IMG/VR virus record: IMGVR_UViG_2728369186_000004
Source of the DNA: a virus
Lineage: Duplodnaviria; Heunggongvirae; Uroviricota; Caudoviricetes
DNA length: 6,195 nt
Strand: one strand, 5' to 3'
Of the stretch, positions 1 through 6,195 are shown piece after piece; the first letter of the stretch is position 1, and every line of letters begins with the position of its first letter. Position numbers and translations under genes: made by a program. A model generated the notes under the pieces. It made no database searches. It was given only the letters and a program-made list of their open reading frames with translations, and was not told the DNA's origin.

Positions 1-93
1 TGTTCTGAGGTGAGCATATCACCTCTGTTCAGGTGGCCAAATTCAGTAAACCACTTCAGAACCTTATTTCATGCAAATGAGATCTACAATTAG
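1..93 (+). CDS. 3' end of an upstream gene (partial, unknown product); frame 1 open from window edge to TAG at 91-93
   Basis: Frame 1 has no stop from position 1 until TAG 91-93 (...CSEVSISPLFRWPNSVNHFRTLFHANEIYN*), overlapping the tail-fibre start by 23 nt. Only 30 codons visible, no motif recognised. Confidence 0.3.
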   Translation, partial: CSEVSISPLFRWPNSVNHFRTLFHANEIYN

Positions 94-1480
94 CTGGGAC
101 GATCAGGACAAAGAAGCACTGGAAGACCTGATTGGTTTACAAGACCGCTTAGATGAAACTATCGCGGATGCTATTGCTCAAGCTGGCGCTAATGCCGATG
201 CTAAAATTGATGCAATGCATAAGCAAATCACTACCGAAACAGGGCAGACGGTCCAAGCCTCAGCCAATACCTTAAAGAGTCTGATTGCTACCAGCGAGCA
301 AGCTAGCTCCACTAAGATTGATCAGGTTAAAGCTGAACTGAAAGGCGATATCACCAAAGAAGTTAGTGCATCTGCTACTACCCTGAAACAAGCTATTGCT
401 ACCAGTGAAGCAGCAAGCGCAAGCAAGATTGACCAAGTTCGGGTAGAAATGGATGGCAAGATTGCTGGTGTGAATCAGGAAGCGGACGTTAAGATCGATG
501 CTTTGAAGGGAACCATTAACAGCAAATACAATCTAGCAGTTAATGCAGATGGTCGCGTGGCTGGCATTCACATGAGCGCAACCAACGATCCGGCGCAACC
601 GACGAGAATCATCTTTAATGCTGATAAAATCGCGGTAGCTCCACAGAACGGATCGGAAGTATGCCCGTTTGGTATCGAAGGTAACAAGGTTTATCTCGAT
701 AATGCGATGATTCGTAATGCTGCAATTGGTACAGCCCAGATTAATGATGCGGCGATTACCACGGCTAAAATCGGCAATGCTGCAATTAACAGCGCGAAGA
801 TTCAGGACGGGGCAATCACTAACGCGAAGATCGTAAACGGTGCAATTGATAACGCTAAAATCGGTAACTATATCCAGTCTTCCAACTGGAACGGATCGAC
901 CGGATGGCATATCAACAAGAACGGGTCCGCTACGTTCATGAATGCAACCGTTAAAGGTAATATCACTGCTGATTCTGGTACTCTGAACAACGTCACGATT
1001 AACTCTAGCTGTGTTATTAAGGGTATGCTTGAAGCTACTCAGGTTAAGGGTGATTTCGTTAAGGTGATTGGACGTAAGTTCCCGCATCGTGATGTTAACG
1101 TTGATAATGGTTATGCTGGTTATCCACAGGGAACGGTCACTGTTCGCGTTGAAGATGATCACAAGTTCGATCGTCAAATCGTTATTCCGGCTGTTAGTTT
1201 TGGTGGATTGCGAGCGCGTGAAGGGTCGAACAATAATACGTTTTACGACACCTGTCGCCTGATTGTTCGTAAGAATGGGTCAGAGTTGTATAATAGGGCG
1301 TATGGCGGTAATACTGGTCTTTACTCAGGTGTTATTGATATGCCAGCGGGTAAAGGTGCTGTGACCTTGACCTTTGAAGTGCAATCAAGCGCAATCAACA
1401 ACTGGACGCCTAGCACATGGATCAGTGATTTAACTGTAATGGTAACTAAAAAAGCAACTACCGGTATTACTGTTTCTTAA
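71..1480 (+). CDS. Phage tail fibre / receptor-binding protein (469 aa)
   Basis: Complete ORF ATG 71 to TAA 1478-1480. N-terminal Ala/Ser/Thr/Gln-rich segment with KID-containing repeats of ~37 aa (KIDAM, KIDQV, KIDQV, KIDAL). Central array of 10-residue repeats IRNAAIGTAQ / INDAAITTAK / IGNAAINSAK / IQDGAITNAK / IVNGAIDNAK, typical of tail-fibre shafts. Gly/Asn/Thr-rich C-terminal ~200 aa consistent with a receptor-binding tip. No obvious SD; start probably coupled to the overlapping upstream ORF. In-frame stop at 47-49 rules out 5' extension in this frame. Confidence 0.75.
   Translation: MQMRSTISWDDQDKEALEDLIGLQDRLDETIADAIAQAGANADAKIDAMHKQITTETGQTVQASANTLKSLIATSEQASSTKIDQVKAELKGDITKEVSASATTLKQAIATSEAASASKIDQVRVEMDGKIAGVNQEADVKIDALKGTINSKYNLAVNADGRVAGIHMSATNDPAQPTRIIFNADKIAVAPQNGSEVCPFGIEGNKVYLDNAMIRNAAIGTAQINDAAITTAKIGNAAINSAKIQDGAITNAKIVNGAIDNAKIGNYIQSSNWNGSTGWHINKNGSATFMNATVKGNITADSGTLNNVTINSSCVIKGMLEATQVKGDFVKVIGRKFPHRDVNVDNGYAGYPQGTVTVRVEDDHKFDRQIVIPAVSFGGLRAREGSNNNTFYDTCRLIVRKNGSELYNRAYGGNTGLYSGVIDMPAGKGAVTLTFEVQSSAINNWTPSTWISDLTVMVTKKATTGITVS
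707..871 (+). repeat. Tandem degenerate 30-bp (10-codon) coding repeats, 5-6 copies, inside tail fibre gene
   Basis: Protein residues ~213-267 form consecutive decapeptides with pattern I-x-[ND]-[AG]-A-I-x-x-A-[KQ]; the underlying DNA shows the matching 30-nt periodicity (e.g. atcggcaatgctgcaattaacagcgcgaag / attcaggacggggcaatcactaacgcgaag). Confidence 0.6.
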
Positions 1481-1498: not shown

Positions 1499-1540
1499 TA
1501 ATCCCGCTTAATTCTTTAGAGTTAGGCGGGATTATTTTTA
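1499..1540 (+). terminator. Rho-independent terminator after tail fibre gene
   Basis: Inverted repeat taATCCCGCttaa (1499-1511) / ttagGCGGGATta (1522-1534) with one G-U position and a ~10-nt loop, followed by tttta T-run (1535-1540), 19 nt after the tail-fibre stop. Confidence 0.6.
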
Positions 1541-1586: not shown

Positions 1587-1865
1587 ATGACTGAAATTAT
1601 ATATGGCGGTATCGGTGTTATCGCCTTAATTTGTGGTGGTCTTTGGAGACTTCACCGAAATCAATTAGCAACTGAAAATAGATTGTCGAAATTGGAATCC
1701 AGCGACGCATTGTTAAACCAGAAGTTTGAGACGATGCAAAGTAACCATGACCAGATCGCCGAGAGAGTTTATCGCATGGAACAAACACTACACGGTATAG
1801 AGAAGAAAGTGGTTGCGATGGACGCCAAATTTGACCAAGTTCTCGACATACTCAAACAAAAATAA
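1587..1865 (+). CDS. Small membrane protein, N-terminal transmembrane helix plus coiled-coil (92 aa); possible holin/lysis-associated or exclusion protein
   Basis: Strong SD cGGGGGcg (1577-1583) 4-9 nt before ATG 1587. Residues 4-20 IIYGGIGVIALICGGLW hydrophobic, followed by RLHRNQ (positive-inside suggests N-out/C-in). Remainder has heptad-like charged/hydrophobic periodicity (coiled coil). No family recognised with confidence. Confidence 0.55.
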   Translation: MTEIIYGGIGVIALICGGLWRLHRNQLATENRLSKLESSDALLNQKFETMQSNHDQIAERVYRMEQTLHGIEKKVVAMDAKFDQVLDILKQK

Positions 1866-1886
1866 TAATAATAAAGGGGTGAATAT

Positions 1887-2057
1887 ATGAAGAATAAACT
1901 TAAGAAATATTTTGGTTATCTCTTGATTATCGCCCTCACTTATAACGTAGCAATTAGACCTCTGCTAACGTCCTTTGGGCTTGAACTCCCGGCTATGACC
2001 GTGGATGAACAATTGCTAAGGACACTGGCGGGGGTCTTTTCGTTATTAGGGGGATAA
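1887..2057 (+). CDS. Small membrane protein (56 aa), not in ORF track; holin-like candidate
   Basis: ATG 1887 preceded by SD aaaGGGG (1873-1879, 7-nt spacer). Translation MKNKLKKYFGYLLIIALTYNVAIRPLLTSFGLELPAMTVDEQLLRTLAGVFSLLGG: Lys-rich N-terminus, one clear hydrophobic helix, no Cys (so not a lipoprotein). TAA 2055-2057 lies 1 nt before the ATG of the next gene (coupled). Confidence 0.45.
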   Translation: MKNKLKKYFGYLLIIALTYNVAIRPLLTSFGLELPAMTVDEQLLRTLAGVFSLLGG

Positions 2058-2058
2058 T

Positions 2059-2742
2059 ATGTCAACCAGTGTCAATAAACGTAACGCTCTAAGGACTAAG
2101 AAAGCGTTGAGGCAATGGTCTGAAAAGGCAACCGATACATTCGAAAGGGCAATAGGGGAAGGGGCGATCTTTGCTTCCAGAGCACTCCAGAAGAAGATTA
2201 ACAAGAATGTTGATAGACCTACTCGATGGACTCAGCAAGCTGTAGGTAATACCAACTACAAGAACCGATCAGGGACGAAACACCAAATCTTCATCAAGGG
2301 CGCAAGGGATAAGGACAAGAAGATCGGCAGTCAGGATGACTATCTGAAACACTATTTCGATGGGGGCAAAATCAATAAGCTAGTTCCAATCGCCAACGGC
2401 AGGGTCTTAGACTCCCACGGGAACATTAAGGCCATTAAAGGCGGTAAGATGATGCGTAACATCGAAAACGGCAACTTCATCAAGGTAGAGAACAAGGAAG
2501 GGACTTTTATCATGAAGAAGTACAAGCCTAAGAAATCCCGAACCAAACGCGCTAGGAATGGATCGGCGGTGGCAAAACGTCGCTTAGAGAAACGCACACA
2601 GAAACAGAGTAAGCGAATCGTTGCCGTTAAGTCGGATAAAATTTCTACTCGTTATTCGACGCTAGGATCGTGGGAAAGCAACGAAGCAATGATGCTTGAA
2701 AACATCAATAAGCACATTAAATCGCGCATGAGATACGTTTAA
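2059..2742 (+). CDS. Lysine/arginine-rich basic protein of unknown function (227 aa); possible nucleic-acid-binding protein
   Basis: ATG 2059 with SD aGGGGGa (2048-2054). No hydrophobic segment. Very high K/R content including KKYKPKKSRTKRARNGSAVAKRRLEKRTQKQSKR. Tightly coupled to the preceding small membrane gene. No family recognised. Confidence 0.55.
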   Translation: MSTSVNKRNALRTKKALRQWSEKATDTFERAIGEGAIFASRALQKKINKNVDRPTRWTQQAVGNTNYKNRSGTKHQIFIKGARDKDKKIGSQDDYLKHYFDGGKINKLVPIANGRVLDSHGNIKAIKGGKMMRNIENGNFIKVENKEGTFIMKKYKPKKSRTKRARNGSAVAKRRLEKRTQKQSKRIVAVKSDKISTRYSTLGSWESNEAMMLENINKHIKSRMRYV

Positions 2743-2780: not shown

Positions 2781-3128
2781 ATGGCTAAAAATATTTTCAC
2801 TGAATTTCCTACTTATCCGGTCGACCAGCTTTCCGGTATTTTTATCAATGGCATTAGCCCAGAATCCATGACACATGATTTTGAGGCGAAGAGAGTTAAA
2901 CATAAACAATATAAAGAATGTATCCGCGATCATGAAAAAGGGACCGTGTTTTGTGTCGCTACATTGGCTAAACGTCCTAAATATCGTTTTCGTGTAGGGC
3001 AAGAAGTCGATGTAGTTAATCCTTATAGTTTTAACTGTCTGGGTGATGCACGCGCGGTGTGTGTAGGCACAACTAATTACTACATTAAAGGACTCAGATT
3101 TACCGGGTATATAATGGAATACATCTAA
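2781..3128 (+). CDS. Hypothetical protein (115 aa), unknown function
   Basis: ATG 2781 with GGGGG SD 6 nt upstream; ORF ends TAA 3126-3128 and is followed by a strong intrinsic terminator. Protein has 4 Cys and several His but no motif I can assign. Confidence 0.5.
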   Translation: MAKNIFTEFPTYPVDQLSGIFINGISPESMTHDFEAKRVKHKQYKECIRDHEKGTVFCVATLAKRPKYRFRVGQEVDVVNPYSFNCLGDARAVCVGTTNYYIKGLRFTGYIMEYI

Positions 3129-3142
3129 CTCTAATAAATACA

Positions 3143-3169
3143 AGCGACCAATTTCGGTCGCTTTTTTAT
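3143..3169 (+). terminator. Rho-independent terminator between the 115-aa gene and the Zn-ribbon gene
   Basis: AGCGACC (3143-3149) / GGTCGCT (3156-3162), perfect 7-bp GC-rich stem, loop aatttc, followed by TTTTTATT (3163-3169). Confidence 0.7.
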
Positions 3170-3180
3170 TTGGAGGAATC

Positions 3181-4218
3181 ATGGAGATTTTATTTGCTGA
3201 ATATATCAACTACACCGGATTTACAAGAAAAACGCCTCTTGACTATGAACCTATTGCCATTAAACGTTGTGATGAGTTGGGGTACATCTATAACGGTTTT
3301 GTTGTGCCGTGGAAAGGGCAACATACACCCGTTTCTATAACCTGCAAGAAACATAGCACAACGCGAACAATTGCTTTCAAAACTCTTAAAAAACAAGGTG
3401 CGTGTCTTGAATGCTATAAAGAATCATTAAAACTTCCTAAGAAAAAGAATAGAGATAAGGAAGCTGTACTAGATAAAGCAAGCAATGTGCTGGAACGCAA
3501 AGATATGGTTTTAGTTGGATTGTTAGAAGATTATAAAGGATTAGACACAAAAGTTTCTTATAAGTGCAATTGCTGTGATACTGCATACGAAACCATAATC
3601 ACTAGAATCATAAACGATGATGCTGGGTGTCGTCATTGTGGGTCAATTAAGAGAGGAATCAATAAGAGAAAACACACAGACGACGAATGGATGGATCTAA
3701 TTGAGCATGAATGCAGGAACAAACGACTTGAATTAATAGAACAACCTAAATCTCCTATATTGTCAACATCAAAAATACACATCAAATGTGAAAAAGGTCA
3801 TCTTTCTGATTCTTTGGTAGTTTATGGTTTAGTGTATGAAAACTTAGGCTGTCCATGTTGTTCTAAAAATGGTTATAACAGAAGTAAGTCGGGAGTTTTC
3901 TACGTTCAACAGGTCGGAGATTATATAAAATATGGAATAACAAACCATCTAAACCCACAAAAGCGAGTAACTCAACAAGCTAGGGAATCAGGGTTAAAAC
4001 ACAAGTTATTGTGGTATATAACGTTCGGTGACGGAAAAGTTGCCAATGACCTAGAGTATTCCGTAAAACATAACATAGGAAATCACGCTGCACCAAAAGA
4101 ACTAATCCCAGACGGATATACAGAAACATGTGACATAACCAAAGAAGCGCAGATTAGAAAAATGGCAATGGATTTTTGTAAAAACTCCAACAACTATAAA
4201 ATTACATATAGGGGGTAA
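3181..4218 (+). CDS. Protein with three tandem ~74-aa zinc-ribbon repeats and a C-terminal GIY-YIG/T5orf172-like domain (345 aa); candidate homing-endonuclease-like or DNA-binding nuclease-family protein
   Basis: SD GGAGG (3172-3176), ATG 3181. Metal-ligand sets at exactly 74-residue spacing: C55-x2-H58...C75-x2-C78; C129-x-C131C132...C150-x2-C153; C203-x3-H207...C224-x-C226C227, with flanking similarity (WKGQHTPVSITC / YKGLDTKVSYKC). C-terminus has GVFYVQQVGDYIKYGIT (GIY...YIG-like paired motifs), an Arg ~10 residues later (PQKRVTQQ) and downstream Glu (LEYSVKH, GYTETCD). Stop TAA 4216-4218 is 1 nt before the next ATG. Function inferred from motif spacing only. Confidence 0.55.
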   Translation: MEILFAEYINYTGFTRKTPLDYEPIAIKRCDELGYIYNGFVVPWKGQHTPVSITCKKHSTTRTIAFKTLKKQGACLECYKESLKLPKKKNRDKEAVLDKASNVLERKDMVLVGLLEDYKGLDTKVSYKCNCCDTAYETIITRIINDDAGCRHCGSIKRGINKRKHTDDEWMDLIEHECRNKRLELIEQPKSPILSTSKIHIKCEKGHLSDSLVVYGLVYENLGCPCCSKNGYNRSKSGVFYVQQVGDYIKYGITNHLNPQKRVTQQARESGLKHKLLWYITFGDGKVANDLEYSVKHNIGNHAAPKELIPDGYTETCDITKEAQIRKMAMDFCKNSNNYKITYRG

Positions 4219-4219
4219 T

Positions 4220-4573
4220 ATGTTAAGTAAGCATTTTTCTCGCAAGGAATTTAAATGTAAATGCGGAAAATGTGATTATGATACAATCGACGCTGAATTA
4301 CTGGTGATTCTTGAGGATGTACGCGAACACTTTGGGAAACCAGTGATTATTAACAGCGGGAACCGTTGTCCGAATCATAATAAGAATGTTGGCGGTGCAA
4401 CCAATAGCTATCATGTTCGAGGCCGTGCGGCTGACATATCAGTGAAAGGAATTTCTCCTGATATTGTTCATGCTTATCTTGATGGGAAGTATCCTACTCA
4501 ATACGGCTTAGGAAAATATAAAACCTTTACGCATATTGATTCCAGATCAAAAAAATCACGGTGGAATGGATAA
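4220..4573 (+). CDS. Peptidase M15-family (zinc D-Ala-D-Ala carboxypeptidase-like) cell-wall hydrolase; probable endolysin (117 aa)
   Basis: ATG 4220 with GGGGG SD (4211-4215) inside the 3' end of the upstream gene. Motifs FSRKEF...SGNRCPNHNKNVGG...SYH-x6-D (H-VRGRAA-D) and C-terminal FTHID match the metal-binding signature of Peptidase_M15-type phage lysins. No signal peptide or TM segment. Confidence 0.75.
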   Translation: MLSKHFSRKEFKCKCGKCDYDTIDAELLVILEDVREHFGKPVIINSGNRCPNHNKNVGGATNSYHVRGRAADISVKGISPDIVHAYLDGKYPTQYGLGKYKTFTHIDSRSKKSRWNG

Positions 4574-4763
4574 AACAAAAGCGCCTCTGGTGGGCGCTTT
4601 TTTGTTAGAATATGCTGGCGACGTTAGCTATATTTCTGACCATTTTTTCATTATAGACAAATATACCGCAGACGATAAAGTCGTTTTTGACGAAGTAGAT
4701 CCGTCTCTGGTTGAAGTAATGAAAGAACCGGAAGACCTAGAGCTTGATTTAAGCCAATTATAG
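4566..4763 (+). CDS. Questionable small acidic ORF (65 aa from ATG 4566)
   Basis: Track ORF 4536-4763 overlaps the peptidase gene and reads through the terminator hairpin at 4577-4604. The only ATG (4566) has a poorly spaced SD. C-terminus highly acidic (DEVDPSLVEVMKEPEDLELDLSQL). Listed for completeness; probably not a real gene. Confidence 0.2.
   Translation: MDKTKAPLVGAFLLEYAGDVSYISDHFFIIDKYTADDKVVFDEVDPSLVEVMKEPEDLELDLSQL
4577..4604 (+). terminator. Rho-independent terminator after the peptidase gene
   Basis: aaaaGCGCC (4577-4585) / GGCGCtttt (4593-4601), loop tctggtg, then T-run to 4603; begins 4 nt after the TAA at 4571-4573. Confidence 0.55.
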
Positions 4764-4845: not shown

Positions 4846-5103
4846 CTATGATTTATTTTCTTGTTCTATGAAAATCTTTCTCACCTCATCAGAATAAATG
4901 TCTAGTGATTCCTCATAACATTTTCTGTATTCACCGTAATTACTGGTGGTCTTTTGACATAGCAATTTCAATGTCTTATGTGCTCCATCAATGAAAGCAT
5001 CTTCTCTATAGGTTAGCGGTCTACGCATTTCTTGGTCTACGGTTGCCAATGCCAGGCAAGAATTCATAGATAAAATCAAACCTAAAATCTTAATCATCTT
5101 CAT
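4846..5103 (-). CDS. Small secreted protein (about 85 aa with predicted Sec signal peptide), unknown function
   Basis: Track ORF begins at a TTG (5118-5116); first ATG is at 5103-5101 (MKMIKILGLILSMNSCLALA|TVDQ...): basic n-region, hydrophobic core, ALA cleavage motif. Not a canonical lipobox (MNSC). Mature part ~65 aa with 2 Cys. Starts 5 nt after the recombinase stop, so co-transcribed. Confidence 0.5.
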   Translation of the reverse strand: MKMIKILGLILSMNSCLALATVDQEMRRPLTYREDAFIDGAHKTLKLLCQKTTSNYGEYRKCYEESLDIYSDEVRKIFIEQENKS

Positions 5104-5107
5104 TAGC

Positions 5108-6064
5108 TTAAATTCCAAATTCTTGTAATGGACCTGGTATTTCTTCTTCTGGTTTCCAGTTCTTATCTGTCAGCATGTCTAAACATGGATGCAGAACAAG
5201 CCCGTTACTCTCCAGAATCTGCCTATCATTGATAGTCTTCAAATCAACGAAGATCCGGCCTTTCCTCGGTCCTCTTGAATTTTCTATTACAACTCTCTGG
5301 GTCTTGCCATCGATGTATTCCAGTACAAACAAGTTTTTGTACTTGTCAATCCTGCTACACCCGATCCGTTTTAGAGCTTGCTTAATCTTAAACCGGACCT
5401 TAATGCGATCCTCGTTGTAAACATCTTCTAAATCAAATTCTGCGAGCTTCTCCCAGCCTTGAGAGTCAACAGAATACATTTCCTCTTCTGCCATCTTAAT
5501 TTGATTGTAGAGTGTTTCACGCTCGCTATTGAGGGTAGTAATCTGATCGGCTAGCTCCTTCGTTGCTCCTGTCATAGCAGAAAGGGTAATCAGGTTATCA
5601 ATCTTGCGTGATATTTCATCAATCTGTACTTTCAAAGCCGGAACCGGATTAGCCTTATCTTCAGCAATCCAGATTTTATCAGCCAGCAATTGCAATACAG
5701 CTTTCTCTAATTGGTCGCCGCGAAAACTCCAGTTTGTATGCACACATTCAATACGACTAGAGCGCATTGCATCGCATGAATAACGATATTGGTTAGGCCG
5801 TCTGTTTGTTCCTTTCACCTTAACCATAGCGGAACCGCAATGTTCACATTTCAATAGACCAACACCACTAAGCAAGGGAATAGGTTTAACTTCTTCTTTG
5901 TCTCCAAAGTTACATGCTCTAACACCAATGCTTTTCTTAAGGTGATAAAACTCAGCGTCATCTAGCACACGAGGATAATAATCCTTTAACTCATACTTAA
6001 CGCCATCTACAGAGATTTCCTTGATACCAATCAAAGCGCGGGTATGGAACAACCTTTCAATCAT
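5108..6064 (-). CDS. Large serine recombinase, C-terminal portion only (end of recombinase domain, zinc ribbon, coiled-coil); N-terminal catalytic domain not encoded in frame, so possibly truncated or a pseudogene
   Basis: Zinc-ribbon motif LLSGVGLLKCEHCGSAMVKVKG...YRYSCDAMRSSRIECVHTNWSFRGDQLEKAVLQLL (C73, C76, C97, C107), followed by a long predicted coiled-coil, typical of large serine recombinases. No resolvase-type catalytic domain precedes it. The frame stays open upstream of ATG 6064 to an in-frame TAG at 6167-6169, and that stretch (LNATYTPPPAASHKRHSNWSRA-MIERLFHTRALIG) still resembles the recombinase domain (W-x4-[VI]-x-R-[IL]...Y/L-x-G). Confidence 0.7.
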   Translation of the reverse strand: MIERLFHTRALIGIKEISVDGVKYELKDYYPRVLDDAEFYHLKKSIGVRACNFGDKEEVKPIPLLSGVGLLKCEHCGSAMVKVKGTNRRPNQYRYSCDAMRSSRIECVHTNWSFRGDQLEKAVLQLLADKIWIAEDKANPVPALKVQIDEISRKIDNLITLSAMTGATKELADQITTLNSERETLYNQIKMAEEEMYSVDSQGWEKLAEFDLEDVYNEDRIKVRFKIKQALKRIGCSRIDKYKNLFVLEYIDGKTQRVVIENSRGPRKGRIFVDLKTINDRQILESNGLVLHPCLDMLTDKNWKPEEEIPGPLQEFGI

Positions 6065-6195
6065 TGCCCGTGACCAGTTTGAATGCCTCTTGTGACTTGC
6101 GGCTGGTGGTGGTGTGTATGTCGCGTTAAGGTGATCTGATCCTACCCACGTAATATGGACACAGGCCTAAGCGAGGTTCTTGTTTTCAAATTGTT

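What the first reader, a model, noticed from the sequence alone, without database searches (positions are those of the whole stretch)
1587..2742. Three-gene operon of two small membrane proteins and a very basic protein immediately after the tail fibre
Three genes with strong SDs are packed within 1-21 nt of each other after the tail-fibre terminator: a 92-aa protein with an N-terminal TM helix (apparent N-out/C-in) and coiled-coil, a 56-aa single-TM protein missed by the ORF track, and a 227-aa Lys/Arg-rich protein with no hydrophobic segment. The position, downstream of the receptor-binding gene and 2.3 kb upstream of the only recognisable lysin, is where phages keep holin/antiholin genes, superinfection-exclusion or receptor-masking proteins, or accessory cargo. 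None of the three matches a family I can name, and a membrane pair plus a polybasic partner is not a standard holin-endolysin-spanin cassette.
Basis: partly seen in the sequence, partly recalled or inferred. Interest (0 to 1): 0.55.

Follow-up and report, generated by a model that had tools for sequence, protein, structure and literature searches.

The report
Prophage holin pair plus tail-completion gene
The three genes are real, but they look like ordinary late phage genes: two small membrane proteins that probably open the inner membrane for the lysis enzyme, and a very basic protein that is most likely a distant relative of lambda gpZ, the protein that plugs the top of the tail.

Summary
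All three ORFs are intact, tightly packed (gaps of 21 nt and 1 nt) and under purifying selection (dN/dS 0.07-0.19). This includes the 56-aa ORF that gene callers often miss.

It is a five-gene block: about 92-aa membrane/coiled-coil protein, 56-aa membrane protein, 181-239-aa polybasic protein, about 110-aa protein, then endolysin. This block follows the J tail-tip gene in every relative examined, even where the endolysin type differs (M15_3, M15_4 or GH24). In this window a homing-endonuclease-like gene has split the block, which creates the apparent distance to the lysin.

The 92-aa family matches a PHROG 'holin' family and the first of two 'holins' of Streptococcus thermophilus phages (94%). 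Its architecture resembles the Mu releasin. All the endolysins are cytoplasmic, so a holin is needed, and these are the only membrane proteins in the block.

Verdict: an ordinary lysis and structural block with an unusual gene order and no recognisable spanin. Interest is low.

The parts
71..1480 (+). C-terminal part of the lambda-J-like central tail tip / receptor-binding protein (context gene). It appears to be truncated at its N-terminus at the IS-derived left end of the window.
   Evidence: Pfam Ig_GpJ_C 3.8e-34 and Phage_Tail_Tip 1.2e-22. The full-length gene is 3.7 kb in relatives. Window 1-58 matches IS-associated sequence.
1499..1534 (+). Intrinsic terminator after the tail tip gene.
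   Evidence: 16-bp stem with 6 GC pairs, followed by a T run.
1587..1865 (+). p92: bitopic inner-membrane protein. It has 3 N-terminal residues outside, a TM segment at 4-20, RLHR at the junction and a cytoplasmic coiled-coil of about 70 aa. Candidate holin, holin partner or releasin-like factor.
   Evidence: Hydropathy. 49 homologues in E. coli, Salmonella and Providencia. dN/dS 0.07-0.18. 4 of 7 family members hit phrog_1296 'holin', best E 2e-7. hhalign 94.3% against the S. thermophilus-phage 91-aa 'holin'. hhalign 41% against Mu gp25 DUF2730.
1887..2057 (+). p56: small membrane protein with a basic N-terminus, one TM carrying an invariant Tyr-Asn, and a Gly-rich hydrophobic C-terminal tail. 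Candidate holin.
   Evidence: Conserved in all six lineages, with invariant Y19 N20 P25 G31 V50 G55. dN/dS 0.11-0.19. 3 of 6 members hit phrog_2024 (unknown function), best E 1e-6. Its stop is always within -8 to +1 nt of the p227 start.
2059..2742 (+). p227: polybasic protein. Candidate tail completion protein of the gpZ / HK97 gp10 superfamily, reached through PHROG 1924.
2781..3128 (+). p115: fourth conserved gene of the block, function unknown. It is soluble and shows no family match.
   Evidence: Conserved in all relatives. dN/dS 0.09-0.12. No hit in Pfam, PHROG, NCBIfam, PADLOC or PDB. No similarity to tail terminators.
3142..3163 (+). Intrinsic terminator at the start of the inserted DNA.
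   Evidence: It lies inside the stretch that relatives lack.
3181..4218 (+). 345-aa homing-endonuclease-like gene inserted between p115 and the endolysin. It is not part of the ancestral block.
   Evidence: phrog_681 endonuclease 8.8e-43 and CapR domain. Absent at this position in L002, L003, L029 and L031.
4220..4573 (+). Endolysin (Peptidase_M15_3), cytoplasmic, with no signal or SAR segment. Last gene of the block.
   Evidence: Pfam 3.5e-28 and phrog_894 6e-46. N-terminus inspected.
4577..4601 (.). Hairpin terminator closing the block.
   Evidence: the scan listed it on the minus strand; the plus strand reads GCGCCTCTGGTGGGCGC followed by a T run.

Best explanation
The three ORFs are the first three genes of a conserved five-gene late block: p92, p56, p227, p115, endolysin. 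The block closes the morphogenesis operon of a lambda/T5-mosaic siphoviral prophage. In an intact E. coli relative, this prophage sits in hicB and carries a serine recombinase gene. Here it is an IS-bounded remnant, and a homing-endonuclease-like gene has been inserted before the endolysin.

Proposed mechanism:
1. p92 and p56 form a two-component holin module. p92 has an N-out/C-in topology with a cytoplasmic coiled coil. p56 is a small hairpin-like membrane protein. They accumulate in the inner membrane late in infection and permeabilise it. This releases the cytoplasmic M15 peptidase to cut peptidoglycan.
2. p227 is not a lysis protein. It is a divergent tail completion protein. In phage 80alpha this protein is a single copy inside the neck lumen, where it caps the end of the packaged DNA and binds the tape-measure N-termini. 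Its strong positive charge serves DNA contact, as in lambda gpZ.

What is shown: gene reality, synteny, purifying selection, the cytoplasmic nature of the endolysins, homology of p227 to PHROG 1924, and profile similarity of p92 to an annotated holin family.

What is inferred: the link from PHROG 1924 to gpZ-type tail completion proteins, membrane topologies, which of p92 and p56 forms the hole, and all activities.
For: Synteny:
- The order J, about 92-111 aa TM/coiled-coil protein, 56-57 aa TM protein, 181-239 aa basic protein, 101-117 aa protein, endolysin is kept in E. coli, Salmonella, Providencia and three more distant lineages.
- The endolysin itself changes between Peptidase_M15_3, Peptidase_M15_4 and GH24 lysozyme.
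- All four upstream genes have dN/dS of 0.07-0.19.

Need for a holin:
- All the endolysins lack N-terminal hydrophobic segments, so a true holin is required.
- p92 and p56 are the only membrane proteins in the block, and no holin is annotated elsewhere in the intact prophage.

p92:
- 4 of 7 family members hit phrog_1296 'holin' (best E 2e-7).
- The orthologue in L032 finds Streptococcus phage 91-aa proteins at E 3e-4 against 2.3 Gb of phage DNA.
- The family profile matches those proteins at 94.3%, E 1e-7, with a shared TExRLxxLE motif.
- In those phages the 91-aa single-TM protein is followed by a 75-aa two-TM holin and the endolysin, directly after the tail genes.
- Dual-holin modules from different families are common in Streptococcus phages (PMC12294143).

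p227:
- 9 of 15 family members hit phrog_1924 'minor tail protein'.
- An alignment without any PHROG 1924 member matches the PHROG 1924 subfamily (including RcCronus gp44) at 98.8%, E 5e-17.
- Lambda gpZ hits phrog_27 (3e-69) and also phrog_1924 (1.9e-4). P0066 hits phrog_27 at 0.0055.
- The PHROG 1924 alignment matches a gpZ alignment at 64%, E 6e-5.
- gpZ has pI 12.0 and net charge +37, the same net charge as p227.
- Experimentally studied tail completion proteins span 112-255 aa (PMC11099176).
- The 80alpha protein presents a positive surface to the DNA end (PMC11661146).
- In the intact prophage, the slot after the FII-like gene holds one gene where lambda has two, Z and U.
Against: - p227 itself has no significant direct match to any tail completion protein profile. 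Pfam gives none. Its own phrog_1924 E-value is only 0.0023. hhalign of its subfamily against gpZ, HK97 gp10 or T5 p143 finds nothing. The link is therefore transitive plus one fold hit at a moderate Z. Foldseek against the PDB found nothing.
- The gene is not in the canonical neck position. It is always translationally coupled to a membrane-protein gene, which is odd for a tail completion protein.
- The 'minor tail protein' label of PHROG 1924 is an annotation, not a tested function.
- The p92 similarities lie largely in coiled-coil sequence, which inflates profile scores. The window protein's own hit to phrog_1296 is E 0.043. The same family also hits an Rz-like spanin PHROG (5 of 7 members, best E 1.3e-4) and two unknown-function PHROGs.
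- The Streptococcus 'holin' label is itself unverified here.
- p56 has no annotated relative.
- Two genes (three in this window) separate the putative holins from the endolysin.
- No spanin could be found, so the lysis system as reconstructed is incomplete.
Confidence: 0.6

Rival explanations
1. p92 is not a holin. It is a releasin-like or holin-regulating factor: a membrane-tethered cytoplasmic coiled-coil protein like Mu gp25 (DUF2730). p56 alone is the hole-former. p227 is still a tail completion protein.
For: - Mu gp25 is 99 aa, N-out/C-in, with about 4 periplasmic residues, a cytoplasmic domain of about 73 aa and basic residues at the TM/cytoplasm junction (PMC9239132). p92 has the same layout: MTE, then TM 4-20, then RLHR, then about 70 residues.
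- BLASTP of p92 against gp25 gives E 0.001 pairwise.
- hhalign gives 41%, E 2.8e-4, over 71 collinear columns.
- The motif after the TM is shared: TERVERLE in gp25 and TENRLSKLE in p92.
- The Mu paper notes DUF2730 subfamilies that are paired with non-SAR endolysins and have unknown function.
Against: - No Pfam DUF2730 hit at E<=0.1 for p92 or its distant orthologues. The precomputed hit on the L032 orthologue is only 'faint'.
- The conserved LP...G motif of DUF2730 is missing.
- The endolysins here have no SAR domain to release.
- The phage is not Mu-like.
Confidence: 0.18
2. p227 (perhaps together with p115) acts in lysis rather than in the virion. One possibility is a polycationic protein that, once the holin opens the membrane, destabilises the outer membrane in place of the missing spanin. 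This would be a function like the cationic disruptin of phage phiKT, as I recall it.
For: - No i-, o- or u-spanin candidate exists in the block or in the whole prophage.
- p227 lies between the holin-like genes and the endolysin in all lineages, and is translationally coupled to p56.
- High net charge (+14 to +44) is a trait of the whole family.
Against: - Homology to PHROG 1924, cross-hits with gpZ, and the fold hit to a tail completion protein.
- gpZ is equally basic without any lysis role.
- PHROG 1924 genes in RcCronus and in L036 lie just upstream of the packaging genes (terminase, HNH), not within a lysis cassette.
- The lipobox scan used here is crude, so spanins may simply have been missed.
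Confidence: 0.08
3. The membrane pair is a lysogenic-conversion or superinfection-exclusion module (a moron) expressed from the prophage. It would mask the receptor or block DNA entry, as genes downstream of J do in several phages.
For: - The position is immediately downstream of the receptor-binding gene and behind a strong terminator.
- Small inner-membrane proteins with this role are known from my own knowledge (HK97 gp15, T4 Imm and Sp).
Against: - The genes are present in invariant order in every relative, down to about 25-35% identity. This is not the patchy distribution of morons.
- No promoter-like site lies in front of p92.
- Their GC content (40-42%) is not atypical for the block.
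- The downstream genes are tightly coupled.
- No PADLOC hit.
- Without these two proteins, the phage family has no holin candidate for its cytoplasmic endolysins.
Confidence: 0.06
4. p227 is a DNA-binding non-structural protein, for example a packaging accessory or small-terminase-like factor, or a late regulator. On this view its resemblance to tail completion proteins is fortuitous.
For: - Extreme basicity.
- PHROG 1924 genes in RcCronus and L036 lie directly upstream of HNH or small terminase genes.
- One member has a weak small-terminase PHROG hit (E 0.026).
Against: - That hit is not significant.
- No helix-turn-helix or other DNA-binding domain was detected.
- The best fold match is a tail completion protein.
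- In this prophage the gene is far from the terminase.
Confidence: 0.06

Closest known systems
Tail completion proteins: lambda gpZ, HK97 gp10 (Pfam PF04883), SPP1 gp16.1 and 80alpha gp51 (PDB 9mu2 chain P)
   Same: - Size lies within the 112-255 aa range of studied tail completion proteins.
- Extreme positive charge: gpZ has net +37 and pI 12.0; p227 has net +37 and pI 10.8.
- Sequence links run through PHROG 1924: 98.8% to p227, and 64% plus reciprocal HMM hits to gpZ.
   Different: - No direct significant sequence match of p227 to gpZ, gp10 or T5 p143.
- The gene lies after the tail tip gene and inside the lysis block, not between the head-closure and tail-terminator genes.
- It carries extra beta elements and a long polybasic loop (residues about 154-186).
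- Its presence in the virion is untested.
PHROG 1924 'minor tail protein' (for example Rhodobacter phage RcCronus gp44)
   Same: - Clear homology over the N-terminal 110 residues.
- Shared motifs: DRPTxFT, QxxYL and YGN(I/L/M).
- Similar length and basicity.
- The host phages share the same type of structural module (gpA-like terminase, fused protease-capsid gene, J-like tip).
   Different: - In RcCronus the gene is the last one before cos and the small terminase, not next to J.
- The C-terminal halves diverge.
- The PHROG label is an annotation without experimental support that I could find.
Dual 'holin' modules of Streptococcus thermophilus phages (for example CHPC873 gp23 + gp24 + endolysin; phrog_1296)
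   Same: - A protein of about 91 aa, with one N-terminal TM and a coiled-coil tail, is followed by a smaller membrane protein. Both sit right after the tail genes and upstream of the endolysin.
- The p92 family profile matches the 91-aa protein at 94%, with a shared TExRLxxLE motif.
   Different: - The host is Gram-positive.
- The second protein (75 aa, two clear TMs) is unrelated to p56.
- No intervening structural gene is present there.
- Holin activity of the 91-aa protein was not verified in anything I read.
Mu gp25 releasin (DUF2730)
   Same: - Same length class.
- N-out/C-in topology with almost no periplasmic residues.
- Basic residues at the TM/cytoplasm junction.
- Cytoplasmic helical domain.
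- Located in a lysis region.
- Weak collinear similarity.
   Different: - Below the Pfam threshold, and hhalign gives only 41%.
- Lacks the conserved LP...G motif.
- The partner endolysins here are soluble, not SAR.
- The phage is not a transposable phage.

Membership tests
Tail completion protein (gpZ / HK97 gp10 / SPP1 gp16.1 / 80alpha gp51) | Significant sequence match to a family profile (Pfam PF04883 or gpZ family; phrog_27 or phrog_5) | tested here: inconclusive
   Direct tests are negative:
- No Pfam hit.
- hhalign of the p227 subfamily against gpZ, gp10, T5 p143 or a 7-sequence gpZ alignment finds nothing.

The transitive route is positive:
- p227 subfamily against PHROG 1924: 98.8%, E 5e-17.
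- gpZ hits phrog_1924 at 1.9e-4.
- P0066 hits phrog_27 at 0.0055.
- PHROG 1924 alignment against the gpZ alignment: 64%, E 6e-5.
Tail completion protein (gpZ / HK97 gp10 / SPP1 gp16.1 / 80alpha gp51) | Fold: long bent N-terminal helix, extended loop with a beta-hairpin, C-terminal helix | tested here: met
   - AF2 model: pLDDT 78.6; helices 2-23, 27-50 and 205-225; hairpin 62-79.
- BFVD hits are labelled HK97 gp10 or type I neck protein, at E 0.02-2.
- The strength is moderate. Foldseek against the PDB found nothing.
Tail completion protein (gpZ / HK97 gp10 / SPP1 gp16.1 / 80alpha gp51) | Gene lies between the head-closure gene and the tail-terminator gene | tested here: not met
   The gene lies downstream of J. 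In the intact prophage, however, the canonical slot after the FII-like gene (PF05354, 3.8e-5) holds only one gene (140 aa) where lambda has both Z and U.
Tail completion protein (gpZ / HK97 gp10 / SPP1 gp16.1 / 80alpha gp51) | Present in the tail or neck and required for infectious particles | not testable with these tools
   This needs virion mass spectrometry and a knockout in an inducible intact relative.
Holin | Small protein with at least one transmembrane segment and a charged cytoplasmic end | tested here: met
   - p92: TM at 4-20 (Kyte-Doolittle 2.0) with a charged C-terminal domain.
- p56: TM at about 11-28 with a basic N-terminus.
Holin | Encoded with the endolysin in one lysis cassette | tested here: met
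   The genes share one conserved block with the endolysin in all lineages, despite endolysin swaps. They are separated from it by two genes (three in this window).
Holin | Homology to a described holin family | tested here: inconclusive
   - p92 family: 4 of 7 members hit phrog_1296 'holin', best E 2e-7, but the window protein itself only reaches E 0.043.
- hhalign gives 94.3% against the Streptococcus phage 91-aa 'holin'. The similarity lies in the coiled-coil region.
- p56 family: only phrog_2024, of unknown function.
Holin | Forms lethal inner-membrane lesions that release the endolysin at a defined time | not testable with these tools
   This needs inducible expression, with and without the M15 endolysin.
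Releasin (Mu gp25, DUF2730) | Match to Pfam DUF2730 over the full length | tested here: not met
   - No hit at E<=0.1 for p92, or for the L031, L032 and L034 orthologues.
- hhalign against a 7-sequence DUF2730 alignment gives 41%, E 2.8e-4.
Releasin (Mu gp25, DUF2730) | N-out/C-in bitopic topology with a cytoplasmic C-terminal domain | tested here: met
   This is inferred from sequence by the positive-inside rule. The N-terminus MTE carries no positive charge, and RLHR follows the TM directly. No dedicated topology predictor was available.
Releasin (Mu gp25, DUF2730) | Partner is a SAR (signal-anchor-release) endolysin | tested here: not met
   None of the six endolysins inspected has an N-terminal hydrophobic segment.
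Spanin (i-spanin / o-spanin or u-spanin) | i-spanin with N-in/C-out topology, paired with a lipobox-bearing o-spanin (often embedded) | tested here: not met
   - The charge distribution of p92 predicts the opposite topology.
- No + strand alternative-frame ORF of 30 aa or more lies within p92 or p227.
- The lipobox scan of the window and of the loci covering the intact prophage (L001/L006) found no credible candidate in the block.
- 5 of 7 p92 relatives do hit an Rz-like PHROG weakly, best E 1.3e-4.
Moron / superinfection-exclusion cargo | Own promoter and terminator, patchy distribution among related phages, atypical composition | tested here: not met
   - No promoter-like site lies upstream.
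- The genes are present in every relative.
- GC is 40-45%, against 39-45% in neighbouring genes.
- No PADLOC hit.

The most novel reading that the evidence does not exclude
This prophage family has no recognisable spanin. Its polybasic p227 gene is always translationally coupled to the p56 membrane-protein gene, inside the holin-to-endolysin block. The most novel reading still open is that a tail-completion-like protein has been recruited, or serves a second role, in lysis. For example, it could act as a polycationic outer-membrane disruptor or as a holin-associated factor. On this reading p92 would be a releasin-type protein that works with soluble endolysins.
Probability: 0.08. Interest if true: 0.7.

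Novelty: new member of a known kind. Interest (0 to 1): 0.25.

Why it matters
The practical value is mostly for annotation.

- About 1,100 database sequences of the 227-aa protein and several hundred of the 92-aa protein are labelled 'hypothetical' in E. coli and Salmonella prophages. They can now be read as a probable tail completion protein and a probable holin-module component.
- The 56-aa gene is often not called at all.
- The case shows that a gpZ-type gene can be displaced from the neck cluster to the end of the late operon. This explains why neck-gene classifiers see an incomplete neck in this phage group and in RcCronus-like phages.

Two points deserve a modest follow-up. First, the block has no detectable spanin. 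Second, p92 sits in a sequence continuum between the single-TM 'holins' of Streptococcus phages and the Mu releasin family, so it could help define what such membrane-tethered coiled-coil proteins do alongside soluble endolysins.

Tried and rejected
- tblastn of p92, p227 and p56 against 50,697 phage records: no match for p92 and p227, and nothing significant for p56 (best E 3-5).
- First AF2 run with 7 close sequences: unusable, pLDDT 42.
- Foldseek against the PDB: nothing. The afdb50 library was unavailable.
- PDB sequence search with the p227 and p115 profiles: nothing.
- The search for related loci: the first attempt failed because no stretch of the alignment was conserved enough. The viral-contig scan returned only near-identical prophages. 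The genome-contig scan returned nothing.
- I tested p115 as a displaced tail terminator (gpU-like), because the Z-U order would match lambda. It shows no similarity to gpU or to the HK97 terminator, so I rejected this.
- Direct hhalign of the p227 family against gpZ, HK97 gp10 and T5 p143: negative.
- PADLOC for a defence role: no hits.
- The L032 p56 orthologue has weak matches (E 3e-3 to 0.2) to a 66-aa ORF next to the primase gene in T4-like Klebsiella phages. That context was uninformative.
- i-spanin reading of p92: rejected on predicted topology and the absence of an o-spanin partner.
- Sigma-70 promoter in front of p92: none above background.
Full report
**What the window is**

The 6,195-bp window is a fragment of an enterobacterial siphoviral prophage. 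Both of its ends (1-58 and 6137-6195) match IS-associated sequences that occur in thousands of E. coli genomes. The first gene (71-1480) is the C-terminal 469 aa of a lambda-J-like tail tip protein (Phage_Tail_Tip + Ig_GpJ_C). The last gene (5108-6064, minus strand) is the C-terminal part of a large serine recombinase.

Intact relatives are about 35-38 kb. In E. coli E275a the prophage splits the hicB gene.

Its gene order is lambda-like:
- a gpA-type terminase
- a head-tail joining gene
- the portal gene
- a fused protease-capsid gene
- an FII-like gene
- one 140-aa gene
- tail tube, chaperones and tape measure
- a T5 pb9-like distal tail protein
- J

After J comes the block under study, followed by the recombinase.

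**Checking the observation**

The gaps are 21 nt and 1 nt, and each start has a G-run Shine-Dalgarno sequence. They follow a strong intrinsic terminator at 1499-1534.

- p92 has a single hydrophobic segment (residues 4-20), flanked by MTE on the N side and RLHR on the C side. A tail of about 70 residues follows, and it matches generic coiled-coil families.
- p56 has a KNKLKK N-terminus, one transmembrane segment and a Gly-rich hydrophobic C-terminal tail.
- p227 has pI 10.8, 56 K+R, and no hydrophobic stretch.

All three are real genes. Homologues exist in E. coli, Salmonella and Providencia. Pairwise dN/dS is 0.07-0.19. The 56-aa ORF is intact in six lineages, down to about 31-38% identity, with invariant Y19, N20, P25, G31, V50 and G55.

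**The real unit is five genes**

Every relative I could reach has the same order after J:
- a TM/coiled-coil protein of 92-111 aa
- a TM protein of 56-57 aa
- a basic protein of 181-239 aa
- a protein of 101-117 aa
- an endolysin

This includes members only 25-35% identical to the window proteins. The endolysin is Peptidase_M15_3 in the window family, Peptidase_M15_4 in L034/L035 and a GH24 lysozyme in L032/L033. So the four upstream genes stay while the enzyme is exchanged.

In the relatives with the M15_3 endolysin (L002, L003, L029), the fourth gene and the endolysin are about 10 nt apart. In this window a 345-aa homing-endonuclease-like gene has been inserted between them (phrog_681 8.8e-43), together with its own upstream terminator (3142-3163).

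The invariant presence, the lack of a promoter-like site, the ordinary GC content and the absence of PADLOC hits all argue against a moron, cargo or exclusion module.

**The 227-aa basic protein**

The family is small. An exhaustive HMMER search found only 12 representatives among 1.84 billion proteins. It has no Pfam, NCBIfam or PDB sequence match.

The path to a known family has several steps:
- Nine of 15 members hit PHROG 1924 'minor tail protein'. P0066 hits it at 2.4e-33.
- An alignment of the enterobacterial subfamily with all PHROG 1924 members removed still matches an alignment of those members (including Rhodobacter phage RcCronus gp44) at 98.8%, E 5e-17. The shared motifs are DRPTxFT, QxxYL and YGN(I/L/M).
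- Lambda gpZ, the archetypal tail completion protein, belongs to phrog_27 (3e-69) and also hits phrog_1924 at 1.9e-4.
- P0066 hits phrog_27 at 0.0055.
- The PHROG 1924 alignment matches a seven-sequence gpZ alignment at 64%, E 6e-5, over the N-terminal 72 columns.

According to the 80alpha neck structure paper (PMC11661146), this protein has the following properties:
- It is a monomer inside the neck lumen.
- It caps the DNA end.
- It pairs with the tape-measure N-termini.
- It shows a positive surface to the DNA.
- It corresponds to lambda gpZ, SPP1 gp16.1 and HK97 gp10.

Lambda gpZ has pI 12.0 and net charge +37, the same net charge as p227. Studied tail completion proteins range from 112 to 255 aa (PMC11099176). 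In the intact prophage, the neck cluster has only one gene after the FII-like gene, where lambda has Z and U. This fits a displaced Z.

Some evidence points the other way. The p227 subfamily shows no direct similarity to gpZ, HK97 gp10 or T5 p143. Foldseek against the PDB found nothing. The PHROG label is only an annotation.

I put the tail completion reading at roughly two in three.

**The two membrane proteins**

None of the six endolysins inspected has a signal or SAR segment, so a true holin is required. p92 and p56 are the only membrane proteins in the block, and no holin is annotated elsewhere in the intact prophage.

Of seven p92-family members:
- four hit phrog_1296 'holin' (best E 2e-7)
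- five hit an Rz-like spanin PHROG (best E 1.3e-4)
- six hit each of two unknown-function PHROGs

The L032 orthologue finds 91-aa proteins of Streptococcus phages at E 3e-4 in a 2.3-Gb search. The p92 family profile matches those proteins at 94.3%, E 1e-7, with the shared motif TExRLxxLE and a conserved NH.

In those phages, the 91-aa single-TM protein is followed by a 75-aa two-TM 'holin' and the endolysin, directly after the tail genes. Two-holin modules from different families are common in Streptococcus phages (PMC12294143). The pair p92 + p56 has the same look.

p92 also has the architecture of the Mu releasin gp25 (99 aa, N-out/C-in, basic junction, cytoplasmic domain; PMC9239132). But it fails the Pfam DUF2730 test. 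It reaches only 41% in a profile-profile comparison, and it lacks a SAR partner.

An i-spanin reading is unlikely. The charge distribution predicts the opposite topology, and no lipobox partner exists.

p56 has no annotated relative. phrog_2024, the only family it hits, is of unknown function.

Which of the two forms the hole, and whether p92 is a holin, an antiholin or a releasin-like helper, cannot be decided by computation.

**Loose ends**

- No spanin candidate was found in the window or in any of the related loci scanned, including those covering the intact prophage.
- p115 is conserved and constrained, but matches nothing. It is not similar to tail terminators.
- p56 and p227 are always translationally coupled (-8 to +1 nt), which is unexpected for a holin and a neck protein.

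These points keep open a low-probability reading in which p227 or p115 has a role in lysis.

**Verdict**

The region is best read as the tail end of a late operon: a two-protein holin-type module, a displaced and highly divergent gpZ-type tail completion protein, one unknown gene, and the endolysin. In this remnant a homing endonuclease gene interrupts the block.

This makes the genes new members of known kinds. Interest is low (0.25), and the main value is for annotation.

Noticed in passing
window 3129-4219 (gene 3181-4218, + strand): A 345-aa homing-endonuclease-like gene (phrog_681 8.8e-43, CapR domain), with its own upstream terminator (3142-3163), is inserted between the 115-aa gene and the endolysin. 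The insertion is absent at this spot in L002, L003, L029 and L031. Genes of similar size (337 and 394 aa; the L029 one with a faint CapR match) sit elsewhere in those relatives (L003 14175-15188, L029 11922-13106). This suggests a mobile endonuclease gene moving within this prophage family.
   Followed up: partly
window 1-58 and 6137-6195: Both window ends match IS-associated sequence found in thousands of E. coli genomes and in unrelated phages (IS911 region of Sf6; phi467). They coincide with the truncated ends of the J gene and the serine recombinase gene. The window is therefore an IS-bounded prophage remnant, not an intact prophage.
   Followed up: partly
window 4846-5118 (- strand): A 90-aa ORF of low GC (34%) has a signal-peptide-like N-terminus (MKMIKILGLILSMNSCLALA/TV). 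It overlaps the recombinase stop codon by 11 nt. No family match was found. It is a possible secreted moron product.
   Followed up: no
window 4536-4763 (+ strand): A 75-aa acidic ORF (pI 4.2) overlaps the 3' end of the endolysin gene and contains the terminator hairpin at 4577-4601. RefSeq annotates a 65-aa version in E275a. It is not conserved at this position in L002, L003 or L031, so it is doubtful as a gene.
   Followed up: no
whole block, and loci L001/L006 covering the intact prophage: A lipobox scan of all six frames found no i-/o-spanin pair and no u-spanin candidate. These Gram-negative prophages have cytoplasmic endolysins, so how the outer membrane is breached is unexplained.
   Followed up: partly
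L001 about 28232-28351 and L006 11648-11956 (E. coli E275a): The intact relative lies inside the hicB antitoxin gene of the hicAB toxin-antitoxin locus and carries a large serine recombinase gene. hicB is left split into two partial pseudogenes while hicA stays intact.
   Followed up: no
L032 7835-8005; L055 2474-2674 (Klebsiella phage Marfa gp028): The p56 orthologue of L032 has weak but full-length tblastn matches (E 3e-3 to 0.2, 227 records) to a 66-aa hypothetical ORF. That ORF is encoded on the opposite strand next to the primase gene of T4-like Klebsiella phages. The meaning is unknown.
   Followed up: partly
L005 35320-35919 (Rhodobacter phage RcCronus gp44); L036 8001-8699: In the GC-rich relatives, the PHROG 1924 gene sits at the very end of the genome map, just before HNH, small terminase or cos. 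It is not in the neck cluster or next to J. The gpZ-like gene therefore seems to have been displaced to different places in different branches of this phage group.
   Followed up: partly
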